Source: a virus (lineage: Duplodnaviria > Heunggongvirae > Uroviricota > Caudoviricetes). From it: a stretch of 22,172 nucleotides of DNA. The stretch lies in IMG/VR virus record IMGVR_UViG_2585427761_000022; one strand, written 5' to 3'. Shown piece after piece: positions 5,028 through 22,172 of this stretch. Position 1 is the stretch's first letter, and each line of letters opens with the position of its first letter. Made by a program: the position numbers and the translations under genes. The notes beneath the pieces were generated by a model. It saw nothing but the letters and a program-made list of their open reading frames with translations. It did not search any database and had not been told where the DNA came from.

Positions 5028-7685
5028 ATGACGGCAGAGTACATCAGGGACTGGCAACAACCGCGCCACGCAGTGGGGCGTGAAGGAACGGGGATCCCCG
5101 CTCCTGAATCCGCGCTTTCCTCCTGGCTGGATGCCTACCGGGCAGAGAACGAGCGCCGCCAGGAAATGGCTGATGCGGCGTTCTCCGCCACGCCGCTGGG
5201 CAACCTGATTAATAAAAGCCTGGACGCACAGGAAAAACAGGACAAAACAATCACACTGGCAGGAGACGCCAGAAAACAGGCACGCGGCGCGGTAGATGAG
5301 GCCATGGCCTCACTGCGCCTGCTGCCGTCCTATCTGCGCGATCCGCTTATTCGCCACCTCTCCTTCCTGCGCAAAAAACAGGAAGCCGATCGTCAGAAAG
5401 GAAAAAACGCCAGGCAGGCAGAACGCTATGCGCGTGGGACCCTGCGCAAAATATTCGAACGTCTGGAGCGCACCGATCACCGCTGGCTGACATCGGGTTA
5501 TCGCTCCCTTGCCGGACGTGAACGCCTGGACGATTTGCTTTACCTGCCGCAACTCAACAAACACCAGATACAGACGCTGGCCACCATGACGGCGGCGATG
5601 TTCAGCAGCACCTTCGAAAAACTCTGCGATGGTTTTGGCGCGACTGATGGCGAGCTGACCATGGATGTAACGCTGAAGGCGTATCAGATGCTGGCCCGCA
5701 TGGCGTTACACTTACACGCCATGCCTCCGCATTATGACGCACTGACAACAGACAAAGACCGGAGGCACGAACCGGACACAGAACTGCTGCCGGGCGCAAT
5801 CCTTCGCCTGACCTGTGCGGAATGGTGGAAACGCAAACTGTGGCTGTTACGTTGCGAGTGGAGAGAAGAACAACTCCGCGCCGCCTGTCTGGTTTCCAGA
5901 AAAACATCGCCCTATCTGAGCCAGGACGCGTTAAGCGAGTTTCGCGCACAGCGCGAGAAAACACGCGATTTCCTGAAAAGTTTCATGCTGGAAAATGAAG
6001 ACGGGTTCACGATTGATCTCGAGACGGTGTATTACGCGGGAGTAAGTAACCCGGTTCACCGTAAGGCAGAAATGATGGCCACCATGAAGGGGCTGGAACT
6101 TCTGGCCGAAGCCCGTGGCGACAAAGCGGTGTTTCTGACTGTCACCTGCCCGTCAAAATACCACGCCACAACGGAGAACGGTCATCCGAATCCCAAATGG
6201 AACGGGGCCACAATGCGCGACTCCAGCGATTACCTGGTTAACACGTTTTTTGCGGCGGTCCGCAAAAAACTGAACCGCGACGACCTGCGCTGGTATGGCA
6301 TCCGCACGGTGGAGCCTCATCATGACGGCACCGTGCACTGGCATATGATGGTCTTTGCACATCCGGAAGAAATCGACACCATTGTGTCCCATACCCGCGA
6401 TATTGCCATTCAGGAAGACCGCCACGAGCTGGGCAATGATATTACTCCGCGCTTTAAGGTGGAGTATGTCGACGGCTCAAAAGGCACGCCAACCAGCTAC
6501 ATCGCCACCTACATCGGAAAGAACCTGGACAGCCGCGCCGTGGATGGCATCGACCCGAAAACGGACAAGCCACGCGTGGACCACGAAACCGGAAAATCAA
6601 TGGCCGAGAGCGTGGAACGCGCCATCGGCTGGGCGCGTCTTCACCGCGTCCGCCAGTTCCAGTTCTTTGGTATCCCCCCCCGTCAGGTATGGCGTGAACT
6701 CCGCCGCCTTGCCAGTCAGATGGCCCGCAACCCGGAAGGTCCACAACGTCTGGAAAATGACGCAATGGATGCGGTACTCGCTGCCGCTGATGCCGGGTGT
6801 TTTGCCACCTACATTGAGAAACAGGGTGGCGTACTTGTTCCACGCAAAGACTACCTGATTCGCACCGCCTACGACCTCGCAGAAGAGCTGAACGATTACG
6901 GCGAGCAAAGCGTACAGATTTACGGGATCTGGTCGCCACAAATCGGGGAATCTTCCCGCGTGTGCACGCACCCGGATAACTGGAAGCTGGTAAGACGTAA
7001 ACCGGAAGCGGAAGACAGCGCCCGCGAAAATGGTTTTGACCTTCAGGGCGGCCCTGCCGCCCCTTGGACTCGTGGCAATAACTGTCCCCGTGTACAGGAA
7101 ACGGACAACAACGGGACAGAACAGCCGGAAGAACGGCCAGCACCGTGGCCGCAGCTCCCTGACGGCGTTGAAGTGAACGAATGGATGCGCTCACTGAAAC
7201 GGCACGAACGCCGGGCGCTGATGCGTTCGCTTCGTGACAAACAGGCAAAAAACAGCAGTGATGAAGCGCAGAGCTGGACACAGAGCCGCAAACAGCAGCG
7301 GCCTTTGCCTGATAACCACGAATTACTCGCTAAAGAATGGCGGGAGTCTGCTGAATCTCTCGGCCTGCATATCGGTGAACAACAGATGCAGCACCTGTTA
7401 CGGGGCGGCAGTCTGTACGTTGACGGCAGCATCATTGCACCGCAGGGATTTGAAATTGTACGCAAACCGGATACCCGCCTGGACAGCCGAATCACGCAGC
7501 TCTGGCAGCGCCTGAGCCGTAATCATGGCGTAAGCAGCACGGAGATCCGCCATAACCCGGTCGCCAGCTATCTGGCACAGCTGGGGGCATCAGACCCTGA
7601 AGCCGCCGCACGCCTGGCATCGCCCCCATCAGTTGCGGCGGAACGCGGTGCGCAGCCAGCACATCATCACGGGATGCCGCCTTAA
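5028..7685 (+). CDS. A: Replication initiation protein A (rolling-circle HUH endonuclease) of P2-like phages, 885 aa with a long C-terminal extension
   Basis: HUH-like motif GTVHWHMMVF and paired active-site tyrosines in TSYIATYIGK (Y-x3-Y); size and position as P2 gpA. Confidence 0.85.
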   Translation: MTAEYIRDWQQPRHAVGREGTGIPAPESALSSWLDAYRAENERRQEMADAAFSATPLGNLINKSLDAQEKQDKTITLAGDARKQARGAVDEAMASLRLLPSYLRDPLIRHLSFLRKKQEADRQKGKNARQAERYARGTLRKIFERLERTDHRWLTSGYRSLAGRERLDDLLYLPQLNKHQIQTLATMTAAMFSSTFEKLCDGFGATDGELTMDVTLKAYQMLARMALHLHAMPPHYDALTTDKDRRHEPDTELLPGAILRLTCAEWWKRKLWLLRCEWREEQLRAACLVSRKTSPYLSQDALSEFRAQREKTRDFLKSFMLENEDGFTIDLETVYYAGVSNPVHRKAEMMATMKGLELLAEARGDKAVFLTVTCPSKYHATTENGHPNPKWNGATMRDSSDYLVNTFFAAVRKKLNRDDLRWYGIRTVEPHHDGTVHWHMMVFAHPEEIDTIVSHTRDIAIQEDRHELGNDITPRFKVEYVDGSKGTPTSYIATYIGKNLDSRAVDGIDPKTDKPRVDHETGKSMAESVERAIGWARLHRVRQFQFFGIPPRQVWRELRRLASQMARNPEGPQRLENDAMDAVLAAADAGCFATYIEKQGGVLVPRKDYLIRTAYDLAEELNDYGEQSVQIYGIWSPQIGESSRVCTHPDNWKLVRRKPEAEDSARENGFDLQGGPAAPWTRGNNCPRVQETDNNGTEQPEERPAPWPQLPDGVEVNEWMRSLKRHERRALMRSLRDKQAKNSSDEAQSWTQSRKQQRPLPDNHELLAKEWRESAESLGLHIGEQQMQHLLRGGSLYVDGSIIAPQGFEIVRKPDTRLDSRITQLWQRLSRNHGVSSTEIRHNPVASYLAQLGASDPEAAARLASPPSVAAERGAQPAHHHGMPP

Positions 7686-8496
7686 CATTCATGAACTCAT
7701 CCTTTGCGGTGATCTGCTGGAACGGCAAAATTTGCACCCCCTCTTTGCCCCCGTTGGGCGCATGGATGAGCACGTTTTTAAACGCGCCACCACCACGCGC
7801 ACCCTGTAACGTTTCTTTCAGGGAGTCCATGCTTTCGCGGTTTACCTGCGCTGCACCGATGTAGATGATGCACCCGGCGTGGGATCCATTGTCGTAATAC
7901 AGTTTTCTGAACATGTCCGCCGAATGAGACAGGCTGGCCGAGAGTAATGCGCCAAGATATTCCGGCATGCCGTAAATTTCCTGGTTAATGTCCGGATTCA
8001 TCAGGTGGCACACTTTGCCAGGGCGAAACTGAAACGCATCCTTGCCATCCTGCACATACCACCATGATTCAAGATCGCTTCCGCGTCGCATGTATTTCGC
8101 CAGGGCGTGCCGTAATTTAAGCGGTTCGCCGAACATATTGCTTCGAAGCTCAAGGAATGCGTTACCGAACACAAACCAGTCCAGCGCCAGCGCCGAGAAA
8201 TCCTGCCGGGAAAGCAGCGGGTGCGGGATGTAGCACCCGAGCAATACGTTGCGCTTAAAGTAAAGCGCAGACTGATGCCAGGACGTTTGCCGGGCGGCTC
8301 TTGCCAGACCGTACCAGTCCACCGGGGTTTCATACCACCGCCCGTTATCAGCACAGTACATATTGTCCAGCAAATCATGCCCGGTCAGGCGATAAGGACC
8401 ATCAAAAGTGAATGCACTGAGCGACGATTCTTTCCTGAGCGCATCAGCGAGATCAATGCGTGAACTCATGCGCACTTTTTTATTTTTTCTGCTCAT
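7492..8496 (-). CDS. Q: Portal (capsid portal vertex) protein, P2 gpQ-like
   Basis: 334-aa ORF with conserved portal segment AAHRVPPQLMG; ATG overlaps the terminase stop (TGATG coupling); convergent with A. Confidence 0.85.
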   Translation of the reverse strand: MSRKNKKVRMSSRIDLADALRKESSLSAFTFDGPYRLTGHDLLDNMYCADNGRWYETPVDWYGLARAARQTSWHQSALYFKRNVLLGCYIPHPLLSRQDFSALALDWFVFGNAFLELRSNMFGEPLKLRHALAKYMRRGSDLESWWYVQDGKDAFQFRPGKVCHLMNPDINQEIYGMPEYLGALLSASLSHSADMFRKLYYDNGSHAGCIIYIGAAQVNRESMDSLKETLQGARGGGAFKNVLIHAPNGGKEGVQILPFQQITAKDEFMNVKAASRDDVLAAHRVPPQLMGAMPGVRRLQGLMPPAVPDSWRPGYGGSPCCLRHDYGSGAARAA

Positions 8497-10246
8497 CAGA
8501 ACTCCATAACTGTGAAACGCTCGTTTTCTCCTTCGCCGCCAATTGGTTCGTTAATGACAGCAAGCATGGTTGCCCACGCAAGGTCGCCGTGGCTGCTCCC
8601 CCTCGCGCGGTCCGTTTCGTAAGTGATAAAGCCGCCCGGTGTTTTCACCTTACGCACGGCGTTAAAGGCCGCGACCAGCTCGCGTTCGGCGCGATCGTAT
8701 TCCCACCGCCCGGCACGCATTATTTGCAGCATTTTCAGTACAAGCGACCGTTTTGATGACAGCGTGAAGGTGTACGGAATAGCGGCAGGGAAAAACCGTT
8801 TCACTATCTGATAAACAGCCTCCCCGTTCCCGCCCGTCACATCAATGCCGATGTGTTCCACGTTGTAGCGATACGTGAAATCTTCAATGACTCTGGCCTG
8901 TTCTTCAAACTCCAGCCCCTGAACGCGTCGCGTCTCCACCGTTCGAAAACGGCCACCAGGAACAGCCGGAGGAACCACCACGGACACAGCGCCGCTGTCG
9001 CCGTTGCCACTGCTGCCGTTTGCGTCATACCCAATCCATACCGGACGATTCCCCATCGGGCGGGGAGCAAAAGGTTTCCAGTCTTTCCAGTCGTCGTATC
9101 CGTCAACACCGCAGCCAATCAGGATATTCAGGTTAAATGCCGATTCCCCTTCGCGGACAAACTCACACATATAGAGATTGAGGAACTCGTCTTCGGTGTT
9201 TTCATCACGAATTTCGTCGATATCGGTGTGTTTCCAGCCGTGATTAACCACATCTTCCAGCGTGACAATTTGCCGCCACGTCCGGTCAGGGCAGATAAGC
9301 CCGTTATGCAGCGTTTTCCAGTCCACAGAAAAACGCTGGCGTTTATGCGTGGCCTTTTTCTCGTTCCAGCGGTCGCCGTTCCAGTAGGCGTATGCTTCGT
9401 GCGTTTCGGTGGATGGCGTGGAGAAGTAGGTGCGCCGCAATCCGCTGAGGGTTGCCATAGCGCCAGCCACCTTGCGCAGTTCAGCAAAGCGACTGACCCA
9501 GAAAAATTCATCAAAATAAAAATTGCCCGTATAGGACTGCGCCGACGCAGCAGAAGTGCCGAGAAAATGCAGCTCTGCGCCGTTGGAGAGGATGATTTTA
9601 TCGCCCCCTTTCAGCTCCACATCAACTTCAGCCGCAGCCTTCTGAATAATGCTTTTAAACTGGAACGCCTGACGACGCGACGCAGACAAAAAATCTGGTT
9701 ACGCTGGTAAGGTTGCGCCACATCGTCACGCAGCGCCATCAGCAGTGCTTCCTGTGCAAAATACCAGGTCGCGCCAATCTGTCGGGATTTCAGGATCATC
9801 CTGTTACGTATCCCGGCTTCCCTGCAAAGGGTCAGGGAGTCAAACCAGCCCCGCTGATGCCACTCCAGCCTGCTGATGATTTTTTCCCGCAGTGCGGCAA
9901 TCTGTTCCGGCGTGAAATGATTTTTGAGTTTTTTCGCCCGGCCTTTCTTTCCTGTGGCCGTCGCATCCGGCTGGCCATCATGCATTTTTTTAAGCTGCCG
10001 GGTCAGCAGGTCTATTTCCTTAAAGTCACCGCCTGTTTTATTCTGTTTTTCAGTAAGCTAGATGAGGCGCGCATCGATGGACTGCGTGACACGCTGCACG
10101 GGTGGCGTTTCATCCCACTGGTCGCGTTTTTTCCACGCATAAATCGTGTTCGGGTTTATTCCCATCAGACGTGATATTTCTGCGGGCGGATAACCCTGCC
10201 AGTAAAGTTGCCGCGCACGCTGGCGCACAAAAGCGTCCTGAATCAT
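8496..10246 (-). pseudogene. P: Terminase large (ATPase) subunit, P2 gpP-like, disrupted by an in-frame TAG (10058-10060) and a 1-nt frameshift in an A6 tract (9688-9693)
   Basis: Three ORF-track fragments (10058-10246, 9611-9985, 8496-9689) that read as one terminase when joined: N-terminal HTH-like region, Walker A-like KSRQIGATWYFAQEAL, then large C-terminal domain. Confidence 0.7.
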
Positions 10247-14672: not shown

Positions 14673-15142
14673 AGCTCTGGCCCACGCTTGGCGTCGCTTT
14701 CCTTCTGATTGCCGCATGGGGAACATCCATGCGTCTGTCGTGGTCGCTGGGCCGGGAGAACGCCAGAAACGAAGCGCAGACCAGCACCCTGAAAAGTACC
14801 GTCGACACACTGAATATCATCAGCGCCGGGGTACAGGATATGCAGCAGGTGCTGGCTCAACTCCGCGCGGAAAATCAGCAACGCAATCAGGACGGAGAGG
14901 TAAGACGTGAACAGCTACGCAACGATATTGCAAAAGATGAATGCGCCCACGCTTTGCCTGACGCTCGTTTTACTGACAGGTTGCGCAGGCACGCAGAACG
15001 CGCCACGGCCAGCGCCGTCAATCCGGCTTATACCGCAGACGCTGACCATGCCGGTAACGCCTCCCCCCTTCCCTGCCCCACCCACATGGGGAAACCTCGG
15101 AATATGGGGCGACCGCCTTCTGGATGCACTGGAAACCTGTAA
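14669..15142 (+). CDS. i-spanin (Rz / LysB-like), N-terminal TM plus coiled coil
   Basis: ATG at 14669 overlaps the endolysin stop; TM segment LGVAFLLIAAWGT followed by a Gln/Arg-rich helical region. Confidence 0.7.
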   Translation: MKLWPTLGVAFLLIAAWGTSMRLSWSLGRENARNEAQTSTLKSTVDTLNIISAGVQDMQQVLAQLRAENQQRNQDGEVRREQLRNDIAKDECAHALPDARFTDRLRRHAERATASAVNPAYTADADHAGNASPLPCPTHMGKPRNMGRPPSGCTGNL

Positions 15143-15218
15143 CGCGGATAAACGGGCCATTGCTGAACTGGATAAGAGAATAGCCGAACTGACACACCAG
15201 ACGGGAGTAACACAATGA
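14907..15218 (+). CDS. o-spanin (Rz1 / LysC-like) outer-membrane lipoprotein, starting inside the i-spanin gene in the +1 frame and extending past it
   Basis: Lipobox LLTGC; Pro-rich mature region; GTG at 14907 with RBS GGAGAGG (ATG at 14937 is an alternative start); classic overlapped spanin architecture. Confidence 0.6.
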   Translation: MNSYATILQKMNAPTLCLTLVLLTGCAGTQNAPRPAPSIRLIPQTLTMPVTPPPFPAPPTWGNLGIWGDRLLDALETCNADKRAIAELDKRIAELTHQTGVTQ

Positions 15219-17095
15219 CCAGTAAGAACTTTGCACTGATTACAGCCATGACACAGGCTGAACTGACCCGGAAAGTGAATGAATATCTTGCGAAGGGGTG
15301 GCATCTTCAGGGGGACACACGGGTAGCTTACGAGCCCGGCACCCCGTGGTATCTCATGCAGGCCATGGTGGCCGATGGTGCCACCGAGACGCCCTCTGAG
15401 CCATTACCAAACAACAAGACGCCGGAATGGTACTACGTGGTTGTGCTTGCCGGGCAGTCCAACGGCATGGCTTACGGTGAAGGGCTTCCGTTACCGGATT
15501 CTTACGATGCTCCGGATCCGCGCATTAAACAGCTTGCGCGCCGCAGTACGGTAACCCCGGGTGGAGAGGGTTGTACGTATAACGACATCATCCCGGCTGA
15601 CCACTGTCTGCATGATGTGCAGGATATGAGTACGCTGAATCATCCGAAGGCGGACCTGAGCAAAGGTCAGTACGGCTGTGTGGGACAGGGACTTCATATT
15701 GCCAAAAAACTACTCCCGTATATCCCGAATAACGCGGGGATCCTGCTGGTACCATGCTGTCGTGGTGGTTCGGCATTCACTCAGGGCGCGGAGGGAACAT
15801 TCAGTACGACCACGGGGGCCAGCCAGGATTCGGCGCGCTGGGGTGCGGGTAAGCCGTTATATCAGGACCTGATCGCACGCACCAAAGCGGCATTACAGAA
15901 GAACCCGAAAAATGTGTTGCTGGCGGTGTGCTGGATGCAGGGCGAATTTGACATGAGCGCTGCCACCTACGCACAGCAACCGGACCTGTTCACGGCCATG
16001 CTGAAGCAGTTCCGTACTGACCTTTCCGGATTTAACGCGCAGTGCCATGGCGGCAGTGCTGCAGTTATACCGTGGATTTGTGGCGACACGACGTATTACT
16101 GGAAAAACACATACGGCACACAGTATGACTCCGTCTACGGCGCGTACAAAAACAGGGAGAGCGACAACGTTTTCTTTGTGCCGTTCATGACCGACGGTAA
16201 CGGCAACAACACGCCCACCAACTTACCGGCAGAAGACCCGGATATTGCTGATGCAGGTTATTACGGCGCGCAATCCCGTAGTAATGGTAATTGGGTATCG
16301 TCAAATCGTCCGACACATTTCAGTTCATGGGCGCGCAGGGGCATTATTTCGGATCGCCTGGCAACCGCTATTCTGAACGCAGTTGGTCGAACCAGCGCCT
16401 TCATCAGCGGTACCGCACCGGAAATCAAACCCTCGCCCGGCGGCGACACTCCATCGGGGCCGTCTGATGGTGACACATCCGTTCGTACAGTCTCCCTGCT
16501 GCCGACAGCCGGAGAGGCTGCTGCGCAGGGCTGGACCATCACCGGCGGCAGTGTTGCGCTGGAAGATGGTGTGTTTAAGGTTACCAAGCAGAGCAATAAA
16601 ACTTGGTCCCTGATGCATCCGGTGGATGACGCAGTCTCCCTGCTGACACGGGGTGGCAGACTGAGCTGTAAGTTTCGACTGTCAGGCGCACTGACCAACA
16701 ACCAGTTCGGTCTGGGAATTTATCTGTATACCGATGTAGCGTTACCTGACGTCGTGGCGATGACCGGGACTGGTAACCCGTTCCTGATGTCGTTCTTCAC
16801 CCAGACCACAGACGGCAAACTGAATCTGATGCATCACAAGAAAGCCGGAAACACAAAGTTGGGTGAGTTCGGGAATTACAGTAACGACTGGCAGACGCTG
16901 GAGCTGGTGTTCACCGCCGGCAGTGCCACGGTTACTCCGAAACTGAATGGAGTGGCTGGCCCGGCATTCCAGGTCATAAAAGACAGTCTGACACTGGGGC
17001 TGAATGCGCTGACGTTAACTGATATCACTAAAAATGCCGCGTACGGCGTCGATATCGGCAGCCTGGTGCTGGAAATCAATAATCCCGCAGTATAA
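15215..17095 (+). CDS. NanS-p-like sialate (9-O-acetyl) esterase moron: N-terminal DUF1737-like domain, SASA/SGNH-type esterase domain, C-terminal putative carbohydrate-binding domain
   Basis: 626 aa; N-terminus FALITAMTQAELTRKVNEYLAKGWHLQG (DUF1737-like); catalytic-type motif VVLAGQSNGMAYGEG; ATG overlaps the o-spanin stop; no equivalent gene in P2. Confidence 0.7.
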   Translation: MTSKNFALITAMTQAELTRKVNEYLAKGWHLQGDTRVAYEPGTPWYLMQAMVADGATETPSEPLPNNKTPEWYYVVVLAGQSNGMAYGEGLPLPDSYDAPDPRIKQLARRSTVTPGGEGCTYNDIIPADHCLHDVQDMSTLNHPKADLSKGQYGCVGQGLHIAKKLLPYIPNNAGILLVPCCRGGSAFTQGAEGTFSTTTGASQDSARWGAGKPLYQDLIARTKAALQKNPKNVLLAVCWMQGEFDMSAATYAQQPDLFTAMLKQFRTDLSGFNAQCHGGSAAVIPWICGDTTYYWKNTYGTQYDSVYGAYKNRESDNVFFVPFMTDGNGNNTPTNLPAEDPDIADAGYYGAQSRSNGNWVSSNRPTHFSSWARRGIISDRLATAILNAVGRTSAFISGTAPEIKPSPGGDTPSGPSDGDTSVRTVSLLPTAGEAAAQGWTITGGSVALEDGVFKVTKQSNKTWSLMHPVDDAVSLLTRGGRLSCKFRLSGALTNNQFGLGIYLYTDVALPDVVAMTGTGNPFLMSFFTQTTDGKLNLMHHKKAGNTKLGEFGNYSNDWQTLELVFTAGSATVTPKLNGVAGPAFQVIKDSLTLGLNALTLTDITKNAAYGVDIGSLVLEINNPAV

Positions 17096-20640: not shown

Positions 20641-22172
20641 CAGTGAAATACTACGCCATTCTGACTAATCAGGGCGCGGCGCGACTGGCTAACGCGACGA
20701 TGCCCGGCAGTAAGCTGAATCTGACGCAAATGGCCGTTGGTGATGCAAATGGTGTGTTACCAACACCAGACCCTGCACAAACAAAACTGATTAACCAGAA
20801 ACGCATTGCACCGCTGAATCTTCTGAATGTTGACCCTAACAATCAGAGCCAGATTATTGCGGAGCAAATCATCCCTGAAGACGAGGGAGGATTCTGGATC
20901 CGTGAGATTGGTCTTTATGATGATAAAGGTGTACTCATTGCGGTGGCAAACTGCCCGGAAACGTACAAACCGCAGTTGCAGGAAGGCAGTGGACGCACCC
21001 AGACTATCCGCATGATTCTGGTTGTCACGAACACCAAAGCCATCACGCTGAAAATCGACCCGTCTGTGGTTCTGGCAACCCGCAAATATGTGGATGATAA
21101 AATCTCAAAGCACGAGCAGTCACGACGTCACCCGGACGCCTCGCTGACCGCAAAAGGCTTTGTTCAACTCAGTAGCGCCACCAACAGCGATTCAGAAACG
21201 CTGGCGGCAACACCAAAGGCGGTAAAGGCAGCCTATGACCTTGCTAACGGGAAATATACCGCACAGGACGCCACGACAGCACAAAAAGGCATTGTCCAGC
21301 TCAGTAGCGCCACCAACAGCGATTCAGAAACGCTGGCGGCAACACCAAAGGCGGTAAAGGCAGCCTATGACCTTGCTAACGGGAAATATACCGCACAGGA
21401 CGCCACGACAGCACAAAAAGGCATTGTCCAGCTCAGTAGCGCCACCAACAGCGATTCAGAAACGCTGGCGGCAACACCAAAGGCGGTAAAGGCAGCCTAT
21501 GACCTTGCTAACGGGAAATATACCGCACAGGACGCCACGACAGCACAAAAAGGCATTGTCCAGCTCAGTAGCGCCACCAACAGCGATTCAGAAACGCTGG
21601 CGGCAACACCAAAGGCGGTAAAGGCAGCCTATGACCTTGCTAACGGGAAATATACCGCACAGGACGCCACGACGGCACAAAAAGGAATTGTCCAGCTCAG
21701 TAGTGCAACCAACAGCACATCTGAAACGCTTGCTGCAACACCGAAAGCAGTGAAAGCAGCTAATGACAATGCGAATGGTCGGGTACCTTCTGCCCGTAAG
21801 GTGAATGGTAAGGCGCTTTCGGCGGATATAACACTGACGCCGAAAGATATTGGTACGCTTAACTCAACAACAATGTCATTCAGCGGTGGTGCTGGTTGGT
21901 TCAAATTAGCAACGGTAACCATGCCACAGGCGAGTTCTGTTGTTTCAATTACGTTGATTGGTGGCGCTGGATTTAACGTCGGTTCACCTCAACAGGCAGG
22001 TATATCTGAACTTGTTTTGCGTGCAGGTAATGGTAATCCGAAGGGGATTACTGGTGCTTTATGGCAGCGCACATCGACAGGGTTTACAAATTTTGCCTGG
22101 GTCAATACATCTGGTGATACTTACGATATTTACGTTGCAATCGGAAATTATGCGACTGGTGTAAATATTCAA
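20637..22172 (+). CDS. H: Tail fibre protein, P2 gpH-like, 5' partial (open to window end); not in the supplied ORF track
   Basis: ATGA overlap with the I stop; open frame to the window edge; recalled similarity to the P2 gpH N-terminus (RHPDASLTAKGF.QLSSATNS.SETLAATPKAVKAAYDLANGKYTAQDAT). Confidence 0.8.
   Translation, partial: MTVKYYAILTNQGAARLANATMPGSKLNLTQMAVGDANGVLPTPDPAQTKLINQKRIAPLNLLNVDPNNQSQIIAEQIIPEDEGGFWIREIGLYDDKGVLIAVANCPETYKPQLQEGSGRTQTIRMILVVTNTKAITLKIDPSVVLATRKYVDDKISKHEQSRRHPDASLTAKGFVQLSSATNSDSETLAATPKAVKAAYDLANGKYTAQDATTAQKGIVQLSSATNSDSETLAATPKAVKAAYDLANGKYTAQDATTAQKGIVQLSSATNSDSETLAATPKAVKAAYDLANGKYTAQDATTAQKGIVQLSSATNSDSETLAATPKAVKAAYDLANGKYTAQDATTAQKGIVQLSSATNSTSETLAATPKAVKAANDNANGRVPSARKVNGKALSADITLTPKDIGTLNSTTMSFSGGAGWFKLATVTMPQASSVVSITLIGGAGFNVGSPQQAGISELVLRAGNGNPKGITGALWQRTSTGFTNFAWVNTSGDTYDIYVAIGNYATGVNIQ
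21168..21770 (+). repeat. In-frame 132-bp (44-codon) tandem repeat inside tail-fibre gene H: three identical copies, a fourth with 2 substitutions, and diverged flanking copies
   Basis: Copies start at 21168, 21300, 21432, 21564 and (diverged) 21696; unit encodes LSSATNSDSETLAATPKAVKAAYDLANGKYTAQDATTAQKGIVQ. Confidence 0.9.

What the first reader, a model, noticed from the sequence alone, without database searches (positions are those of the whole stretch)
10058..10060. In-frame amber (TAG) codon interrupting the terminase large-subunit gene
On the minus strand the N-terminal 62 codons of the terminase are followed by TAG. The same frame then stays open for 24 more codons (LTEKQNKTGGDFKEIDLLTRQLKK) into the next fragment, which carries the Walker A-like region. 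A single nonsense codon therefore splits an otherwise continuous reading frame. This indicates inactivation of packaging (cryptic prophage), a sequencing error, or expression that depends on amber suppression.
Basis: seen in the sequence. Interest (0 to 1): 0.55.

Follow-up and report, generated by a model that had tools for sequence, protein, structure and literature searches.

The report
Late amber hit in dead terminase
The TAG is a real CAG-to-TAG nonsense mutation in the packaging (large terminase) gene of a P2-family (P88-like) E. coli prophage, but it is only the newest of several disabling lesions in a decaying prophage, so it is ordinary gene decay.

Summary
On the minus strand, codon 63 of the large-terminase gene (10246..8496) is TAG at 10058-10060, and the frame stays open for 24 codons to Met88. 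Every intact homolog examined has CAG (Gln) there.

The gene is not otherwise continuous. A T7-to-T6 deletion at 9688-9693 shifts the frame at about codon 186. It separates the Walker A-like segment from the rest of the ATPase and nuclease domains.

The prophage also has a 2.98-kb deletion (junction 7611-7621). It truncates the portal and replication-endonuclease genes and removes four other genes.

Related contigs form a nested series:
- frameshift only;
- frameshift, a synonymous change and the deletion;
- the same plus loss of a spanin-like stop codon;
- the same plus TAG.

The nearest TAG-free relative differs from the window by one base in 7 kb. The amber is therefore the newest hit in a gene that was already dead.

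It is not a sequencing error, because five contigs carry TAG plus frameshift. Suppression could not rescue the gene. About 13% (12 of 92) of sampled prophage copies of this family already have a broken terminase.

The same Q63 amber occurs in two unrelated prophages that lack the frameshift. This is probably independent recurrence at a CAG codon.

Verdict: ordinary prophage decay, low interest.

The parts
8496..10246 (-). Large terminase (gpP-type) pseudogene of a P88-like (Xuanwuvirus, P2-family) prophage. It is 1,751 nt, against 1,752 nt (583 aa) in intact homologs.
   Evidence: It is 97.6-98.9% identical to the same 2-kb stretch (terminase gene and flanks) of 16 phage records and 99.8% identical to E. 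coli 55989 and 2013C-3342. The reconstructed architecture is Terminase_5 + Terminase_6N + Terminase_6C.
10058..10060 (-). Amber codon TAG at codon 63. Homologs have CAG (Gln), so this is a C-to-T change at 10060 on the minus strand.
   Evidence: CAG is found in 120/120 IMG/VR loci and in 74/74 distinct intact alleles.
10061..10246 (-). N-terminal fragment of 62 codons: a complete Terminase_5 helix-turn-helix domain.
   Evidence: Pfam PF06056, E = 4.9e-28, covering profile positions 1-57 of 58. PHROG 5751, terminase large subunit.
9611..9985 (-). Second fragment (124-aa ORF starting at Met88). It holds the Walker A-like KSRQIGAT and ends in 26 out-of-frame residues after the frameshift.
   Evidence: Terminase_6N profile positions 1-34 only. 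The exact protein is deposited as KEK87811.1 and CTW65543.1.
9688..9693 (-). Frameshift site: a T6 run on the coding strand where intact homologs have T7 (ATT TTT TTG = Ile-Phe-Leu).
   Evidence: In the IMG/VR loci the run is T7 in 104, T6 in 1 and T8 in 1.
8496..9689 (-). Third fragment. It holds the rest of the ATPase domain (including FYFDE, Walker B-like) and the RNaseH-like nuclease domain, in the -1-shifted frame.
   Evidence: Terminase_6N positions 67-211 and Terminase_6C positions 1-154.
7611..7621 (.). Junction of a deletion of about 2,983 bp relative to the E. coli 55989 prophage. It lies at an 11-nt imperfect microhomology (CGCCTGGCATC / CGCCCGGCATC).
   Evidence: ParM, StbB and two hypothetical genes are absent.
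7492..8496 (-). Portal gene truncated by the deletion. Only 886 of 1,047 nt are retained; the ORF is 334 aa with a foreign tail, against 348 aa.
5028..7685 (+). Replication endonuclease (gpA-type) gene truncated by the same deletion. Only 2,594 of 2,823 nt are retained; the ORF is 885 aa, against 940 aa.

Best explanation
The TAG is a genuine, heritable CAG-to-TAG (Gln63 amber) point mutation in the large-terminase gene of a P88-like P2-family prophage. The prophage sits next to yecA in an E. coli clone.

The amber did not inactivate the gene. The gene had already been killed by a slipped-strand T7-to-T6 frameshift at about codon 186. The prophage had also lost about 3 kb, which truncated its portal and replication-endonuclease genes.

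The amber is therefore a neutral secondary hit, accumulated under relaxed selection in a defective (cryptic) prophage. At most a 62-residue HTH fragment can be made from the normal start codon. No functional packaging ATPase-nuclease can be produced, with or without amber suppression.

Shown: the lesions themselves, their presence in several independent assemblies, and their nested distribution. Inferred: the order of events (by parsimony), the neutrality of the amber, and the loss of particle production.
For: 1. Over 2 kb the window differs from the nearest intact genes (99.8% identical) at only four positions. These are C-to-T at 10060 (CAG to TAG), a polymorphic site at 9941, a 1-nt T deletion, and a synonymous C-to-T at 9636.

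2. Intact homologs are single 583-aa ORFs. P88 is inducible and forms plaques (PMC5285337).

3. In a gene-by-gene comparison with the 55989 prophage, every other compared gene keeps its full-length ORF. The exceptions are gpA and the portal (deletion), four deleted genes, and one stop-loss. The tail-fibre gene runs off the window end and differs in repeat number.

4. Contigs that carry the exact 374-aa C-terminal fragment form a nested series:
- L137: T6 only, with the portal, gpA and ParM intact.
- L136, L138, L140, L141: T6, the synonymous change and the deletion.
- L143: the same plus the DUF2570 stop-loss.
- Window, L006/L139 and L007: the same plus TAG.

5. Distances over 6,979 nt agree with that order. 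L139 has 0 mismatches, L143 has 1, L140 has 2, L136 has 3, L137 has 10, and 55989 has 11 plus 1 gap.

6. The 211-aa product of the frameshift-only allele exists on 15 contigs. The 124-aa product, which requires both TAG and frameshift, exists on 5.

7. Terminase disruption is common in this family: 12 of 92 IMG/VR copies are truncated, at various positions.
Against: - The order of events is a parsimony inference. The T7 run is mutable: one T6 and one T8 were seen among IMG/VR loci. L137's T6 could therefore be independent, although L143, L140 and L136 still place the TAG last.
- The same Q63 amber occurs without the frameshift in two other prophage backgrounds, L005 and L008. That is slightly more recurrence than expected if the site is unremarkable.
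- No expression or induction data exist.
- I did not establish whether ERR294601 is an independent isolate of GCA_001285965.1.
Confidence: 0.92

Rival explanations
1. Sequencing or assembly error: the true sequence has CAG, and perhaps T7, so the terminase is intact.
For: - A single-base substitution and a homopolymer-length change are typical error types.
- Some deposited phage records of this family (503458, 500465-2) have terminase and portal genes split into several pieces by many indels.
Against: - The exact 124-aa product, which requires both TAG and frameshift, is on 5 contigs.
- The three fragments are deposited for both GCA_001285965.1 (CTW655xx) and E. coli 3-475-03_S3_C2 (KEK87811.1).
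- L006 is 99.99% identical to the window over 20 kb and has both lesions.
- The lesions sit in a clean nested series across many assemblies.
Confidence: 0.02
2. Suppression-dependent or read-through expression: the terminase is made when an amber suppressor tRNA (supE/supF type) reads TAG. This would resemble a conditional-lethal phage amber mutant.
For: - The frame stays open for 148 codons after the TAG.
- In L005 the amber is the only lesion in an otherwise full-length gene.
Against: - In this window read-through would only reach the frameshift and give the non-functional 211-aa product.
- The portal and gpA genes are also truncated.
- There is no tRNA gene in the window.
- TAG is absent from every intact homolog examined, so it is not a conserved recoding signal.
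Confidence: 0.01
3. Split gene by design: the first 62 codons are a separate small HTH gene, and the terminase proper starts downstream at Met88.
For: - The TAG falls exactly at the end of the Pfam Terminase_5 domain, which matches residues 6-63 of the intact protein.
- A PHROG of about 98 residues (phrog_14025) and records named 'terminase gpP N-terminus-related DNA-binding protein' exist.
Against: - More than 1,000 E. coli records and 16 phage records match this stretch. Every relative inspected has CAG at codon 63. The terminase is one 583-aa ORF in 55989, 2013C-3342, P88 and 80 of 92 IMG/VR copies.
- Most short members of the cluster are partial genes at contig ends.
- The downstream piece is itself frameshifted.
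Confidence: 0.01
4. Selected truncation: the free 62-residue HTH domain has been retained or favoured, for example to interfere with packaging of incoming P2-family phages. This would explain why Q63 amber recurs in three backgrounds.
For: - Q63am is found in three contexts: the window lineage, L005 (95% identical, with a different base 5 nt downstream and different neighbours) and L008.
- The truncation leaves a complete HTH domain.
Against: - The look-up was made by the exact 62-aa product in a collection of 153 billion gene positions, so it selects precisely for this event.
- CAG-to-TAG is a single transition.
- Other truncation lengths are as common or more common: 97 aa on 44 contigs, 211 aa on 15 contigs, and 99/136/137/211/420/469/556/565 aa in IMG/VR.
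- The TAG allele is absent from 5,426 complete E. coli genomes, IMG/VR, the GTDB representatives and the JGI metagenomes.
- L008 has a second stop 7 codons later, which fits decay.
Confidence: 0.03

Closest known systems
Large terminase of Escherichia phage P88 (Xuanwuvirus P88, NC_026014.1, YP_009113067.1)
   Same: The 2-kb stretch compared (terminase gene and flanks) is 97.6% identical in nucleotides. The position is the same: portal-terminase on one strand, facing scaffold, capsid, small terminase and head-completion genes on the other. The Terminase_5 / 6N / 6C architecture is the same. P88 is inducible and forms plaques (PMC5285337).
   Different: P88 has an uninterrupted 583-aa ORF with CAG at codon 63 and a T7 run. 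The window has TAG and T6.
Prophage next to yecA in E. coli 55989 (NC_011748.1, 2142257-2167149; terminase WP_000613804.1)
   Same: It is 99.3% identical over the whole window. It has the same integration neighbourhood (integrase next to yecA, also seen in L146) and the same gene order and cargo genes.
   Different: The 55989 copy has an intact terminase, portal (348 aa), replication endonuclease (940 aa), ParM/StbB and two small genes. Its DUF2570 ORF is 135 aa, and it has two fewer 132-nt tail-fibre repeats.
Classical amber (conditional-lethal) mutants in gene P of phage P2 (from my own knowledge; not tested here)
   Same: An amber codon in the large-terminase gene of a P2-family phage that abolishes DNA packaging in a non-suppressing host.
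   Different: Those are laboratory-selected single lesions that supD/E/F hosts can rescue. Here the amber is natural, comes with a frameshift and a multi-gene deletion, and cannot be rescued by suppression.
Defective or cryptic prophages of enterobacteria, formed by progressive mutational decay of lysogens (established concept; my own knowledge)
   Same: Point mutations, homopolymer frameshifts and microhomology-mediated deletions accumulate in morphogenesis and replication genes, while most other genes remain intact.
   Different: Nothing essential. This is a young example in which the decay steps can be ordered from related assemblies.

Membership tests
P2-family (gpP-type) large terminase | Domain architecture: N-terminal Terminase_5 HTH, then Terminase_6N ATPase, then Terminase_6C RNaseH-like nuclease. 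| tested here: met
   The three window fragments together reproduce the architecture of the intact 55989 protein. These are PF06056 (E = 4.9e-28), PF03237 (split, 7e-06 and 1.7e-33) and PF17289 (2e-32). PHROG terminase large-subunit families also match.
P2-family (gpP-type) large terminase | One uninterrupted ORF of about 583-590 codons that encodes a functional enzyme. | tested here: not met
   There is an amber at codon 63 and a -1 frameshift at about codon 186. It is a pseudogene of this family, not a functional member.
P2-family (gpP-type) large terminase | Conserved synteny: portal (Q) and terminase (P) on one strand, divergent from scaffold (O), capsid (N), small terminase (M) and head completion (L). 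| tested here: met
   Gene-by-gene mapping onto the annotated 55989 prophage and the Pfam families of neighbouring genes.
P2-family (gpP-type) large terminase | ATPase motifs: Walker A-like and Walker B (hhhhDE). | tested here: inconclusive
   KSRQIGAT lies in fragment 2 and FYFDE in fragment 3, read from the translations. The motif assignment rests on remembered similarity to T4 gp17 (SRQLGKT). It was not tested by structure or alignment to a characterised enzyme.
Xuanwuvirus (P88-like Peduoviridae) prophage | High nucleotide identity and collinearity with P88-like genomes. | tested here: met
   All 16 phage hits are 95-99% identical over the 2-kb query and are classified as Xuanwuvirus where taxonomy is given. 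The whole window is 99.3% identical to the 55989 prophage.
Defective (cryptic) prophage | Inactivating lesions in genes essential for lytic growth. | tested here: met
   The terminase has a nonsense mutation and a frameshift. The portal and replication endonuclease are truncated by a 2.98-kb deletion.
Defective (cryptic) prophage | Failure to produce infectious particles on induction. | not testable with these tools
   This needs an induction and plaque or qPCR assay of the source strain.
Suppression- or recoding-dependent gene (programmed stop-codon read-through) | The in-frame stop is conserved among homologs, and the ORF is otherwise intact downstream. | tested here: not met
   CAG is found in 120/120 IMG/VR loci and 74/74 intact alleles, and no exact TAG allele was found in four collections. 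A downstream frameshift is present.
Suppression- or recoding-dependent gene (programmed stop-codon read-through) | A cognate suppressor tRNA is available. | tested here: inconclusive
   There is no tRNA gene in the window. The host chromosome is not available to check.

The most novel reading that the evidence does not exclude
The Gln63 amber may be favoured rather than random. It recurs in at least two or three unrelated P88-like prophage backgrounds, and it cuts exactly at the end of the Terminase_5 HTH domain. The free 62-residue DNA-binding domain could be a domesticated product, for example a dominant-negative inhibitor of packaging by superinfecting P2-family phages.
Probability: 0.03. 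Interest if true: 0.55.

Novelty: already known. Interest (0 to 1): 0.08.

Why it matters
It matters little beyond correct annotation. The terminase here should be annotated as one pseudogene with two lesions, not as three genes. The prophage should be scored as defective when prophage content or inducibility is predicted for this E. coli clone.

There is modest added value in the related assemblies. They give an unusually clean, ordered series of prophage decay steps within one clone: homopolymer frameshift, then microhomology deletion, then stop-loss, then nonsense. That series could serve as a small worked example of how quickly a lysogen degrades once the first essential gene is lost.

Tried and rejected
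I tried hypothetical truncation products at other Gln codons (Q51, Q55, Q68) to measure the background rate of nonsense alleles. I used the spectrum of truncated lengths in the protein cluster and in IMG/VR as a weaker control.

2. Dcm deamination hotspot rejected. Deamination at CCWGG would give CAG to TAG, as in the lacI amber hotspots (from memory). The local sequence is TCCAGCT, which is not CCWGG, so I rejected this by reading the sequence.

3. Contigs L009-L014 are not TAG alleles. They carry the 62-aa product and at first looked like further TAG alleles. They simply end at or within codon 63, and three of them show C or CA as the next bases.

4. L142 is a different lesion. It carries the 374-aa fragment but has a T7 run and an offset upstream. 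I did not use it in the nested series.

5. Conservation of the first 186 nt. In an 8-sequence alignment the first 186 nt looked invariant. With 74 alleles the region is only moderately less variable: 15 variable sites in 186 nt, against 243 in 1,566 nt. I dropped this as a signal.

6. Exact-pattern scans for the TAG allele. Scans of IMG/VR, the GTDB representative genomes and the JGI metagenomes found nothing.

7. The nucleotide-level evidence was already decisive.

Full report
**What is at the coordinates**

Reading the minus strand from 10246, an ATG-initiated frame runs for 62 codons (MIQDAFVRQ...SIDARLI) and stops at TAG, which occupies 10060-10058. The 62 residues are a complete Pfam Terminase_5 (gpP-like) helix-turn-helix domain (E = 4.9e-28).

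**What the gene is**

- The 2-kb stretch around the gene is 97.6-98.9% identical to 16 phage records. All are P88-like Peduoviridae (Xuanwuvirus) where taxonomy is given.
- It matches 1,123 records in 5,426 complete E. coli genomes. The best matches are 99.8% identical: strains 2013C-3342, 2015C-4498 and 55989.
- In 55989, 2013C-3342 and P88 the gene is one ORF of 1,752 nt (583 aa) annotated as terminase large subunit.
- P88 itself is inducible and forms plaques (PMC5285337).

**The lesions in the terminase**

Over 2 kb the window differs from the nearest intact copies at only four positions:
- C-to-T at 10060, which turns CAG (Gln63) into TAG.
- A polymorphic site at 9941.
- A 1-nt deletion in a run of seven T (ATT TTT TTG, Ile-Phe-Leu). 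The window has T6, at + strand 9688-9693.
- A synonymous C-to-T at 9636.

The gene is therefore 1,751 nt long, and its three-frame translation shows a switch from frame 1 to frame 3 at about codon 186. The frameshift separates the Walker A-like KSRQIGAT, in the 124-aa middle piece, from the FYFDE motif, the rest of Terminase_6N and the Terminase_6C nuclease domain in the last piece. There are two independent disabling lesions.

**The rest of the prophage**

I mapped every annotated gene of the 55989 prophage onto the window.

- A deletion of about 2,983 bp has its junction at 7611-7621. The junction is an 11-nt imperfect microhomology, CGCCTGGCATC / CGCCCGGCATC.
- The deletion removes ParM, StbB and two small genes.
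- It cuts off the 3' ends of the replication endonuclease (885 aa against 940 aa) and of the portal gene (334 aa against 348 aa, only 886 of 1,047 nt retained).
- The stop codon of the DUF2570 spanin-like gene is changed from TGA to TGC (15074-15076).
- The integrase, regulators, scaffold, capsid, small terminase, lysis, tail and baseplate genes keep full-length ORFs. The tail-fibre gene runs off the window end.

This is a young defective prophage.

**Real mutation or error**

- The exact 62-aa product is called on contigs of several assemblies.
- The 124-aa product, which requires both TAG and frameshift, is on five contigs.
- All three fragments are deposited for GCA_001285965.1 (CTW655xx). 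The 124-aa fragment is also deposited as KEK87811.1, and all three carry the name E. coli 3-475-03_S3_C2.
- L006, from GCA_001285965.1, is 99.99% identical to the window over 20 kb.

The lesions are heritable features of a clone, not errors of one assembly. Several short contigs that also gave the 62-aa product (L009-L014) merely end at codon 62/63 and are not TAG alleles.

**Order of events**

Contigs that carry the exact 374-aa C-terminal fragment fall into a nested series:

| Loci | State |
|---|---|
| L137 | T6 frameshift only; portal (348 aa), gpA (940 aa) and ParM intact |
| L136, L138, L140, L141 | Frameshift, synonymous change and deletion |
| L143 | The same plus the DUF2570 stop-loss |
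| Window, L006/L139, L007 | The same plus TAG |

Mismatch counts over 6,979 nt agree with this order. L139 has 0, L143 has 1, L140 has 2, L136 has 3, L137 has 10, and 55989 has 11 plus one gap. The 211-aa product of the frameshift-only allele is on 15 contigs. By parsimony the amber is the most recent change. It struck a gene that was already non-functional, in a prophage that had already lost its portal and replication functions.

**How rare is the TAG, and is it special**

- Codon 63 is CAG in 120/120 IMG/VR loci and in 74/74 distinct intact alleles.
- None of the 1,084 matching records in complete E. coli genomes matches the TAG 61-mer perfectly.
- The exact TAG 29-mer is absent from IMG/VR, the GTDB representative genomes and the JGI metagenomes.
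- TAG at codon 63 also occurs without the frameshift in two other backgrounds. L005 is 95% identical, has a different base 5 nt downstream, different neighbouring genes, and the amber as the only stop. L008 is a metagenome scaffold that also has an ochre at codon 70 and a split portal.

I read these as independent CAG-to-TAG transitions, found because the look-up was made by the exact truncated product in a collection of 153 billion gene positions. Truncated terminases of other lengths are at least as frequent: 97 aa on 44 contigs, and 12 of 92 IMG/VR copies truncated at eight different positions. A proper control, counting truncations at other Gln codons, could not be run. A mild hotspot or selection for the free HTH domain is therefore not excluded, but I consider it unlikely. 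The site is not a Dcm (CCWGG) site.

**Suppression**

The window encodes no tRNA, and the host genome is not available. In any case read-through of the TAG would only reach the frameshift, and the portal and gpA genes are truncated. Suppression cannot restore a functional phage.

**Verdict**

The 'cryptic prophage' interpretation is right. The 'sequencing error', 'suppression-dependent' and 'separate small gene' alternatives are rejected. This is ordinary prophage pseudogenisation of a well-known gene family. It is not novel and is of low interest, apart from the tidy reconstruction of the order of decay.

Noticed in passing
window 7611-7621 (junction); affects 5028-7685 (+) and 7492-8496 (-): A deletion of about 2,983 bp relative to the E. 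coli 55989 prophage, at an 11-nt imperfect microhomology. It removes ParM, StbB and two hypothetical genes and truncates the replication endonuclease and the portal. Their ORFs now overlap antisense by about 190 nt.
   Followed up: yes
window 15074-15076 (+): The stop codon of the DUF2570 (Rz/spanin-like) gene is TGC instead of TGA. This extends the ORF from 135 to 157 aa, up to the start of the DUF6645 gene. The change lies inside the overlapping LysC (Rz1-like) frame. It is shared with L143, L006 and L007 but not with L136-L141.
   Followed up: partly
window 21152-21767 (+): The tail-fibre gene contains a 132-nt (44-codon) tandem repeat: 4.7 copies, 95% matching. The window has 264 nt (two units) more than E. 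coli 55989, so copy number varies between near-identical prophages.
   Followed up: partly
window 15215-17095 (+): A 626-aa gene with DUF1737/SASA/DUF6645 domains (SASA is a carbohydrate-esterase-like domain) sits between the lysis cassette and the tail genes, a typical moron position. It is intact here and in 55989, but absent from the corresponding position in L005.
   Followed up: no
L003 (NC_049341.1, Escherichia phage 503458) 1801-4515; also NC_049343.1: These RefSeq phage records annotate the terminase as three CDS and the portal as four. The alignment shows many small indels (14 gap openings in 4.3 kb). This suggests low-accuracy sequence rather than biology.
   Followed up: no
L136 4385-5220 and L145 2358-3193: In a TAG-free sub-lineage of the same defective prophage the scaffold (GPO) gene is split into 88 + 189 aa. 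This is a further, independent decay step in a sister branch.
   Followed up: no
L005 10001-11752 (GCA_964007105.1) and L008 2016-3767 (metagenome scaffold): The same Gln63 amber occurs in two other P88-like prophage backgrounds that lack the frameshift. In L005 it is the only stop in the terminase. L008 also has an AAA-to-TAA change at codon 70.
   Followed up: partly
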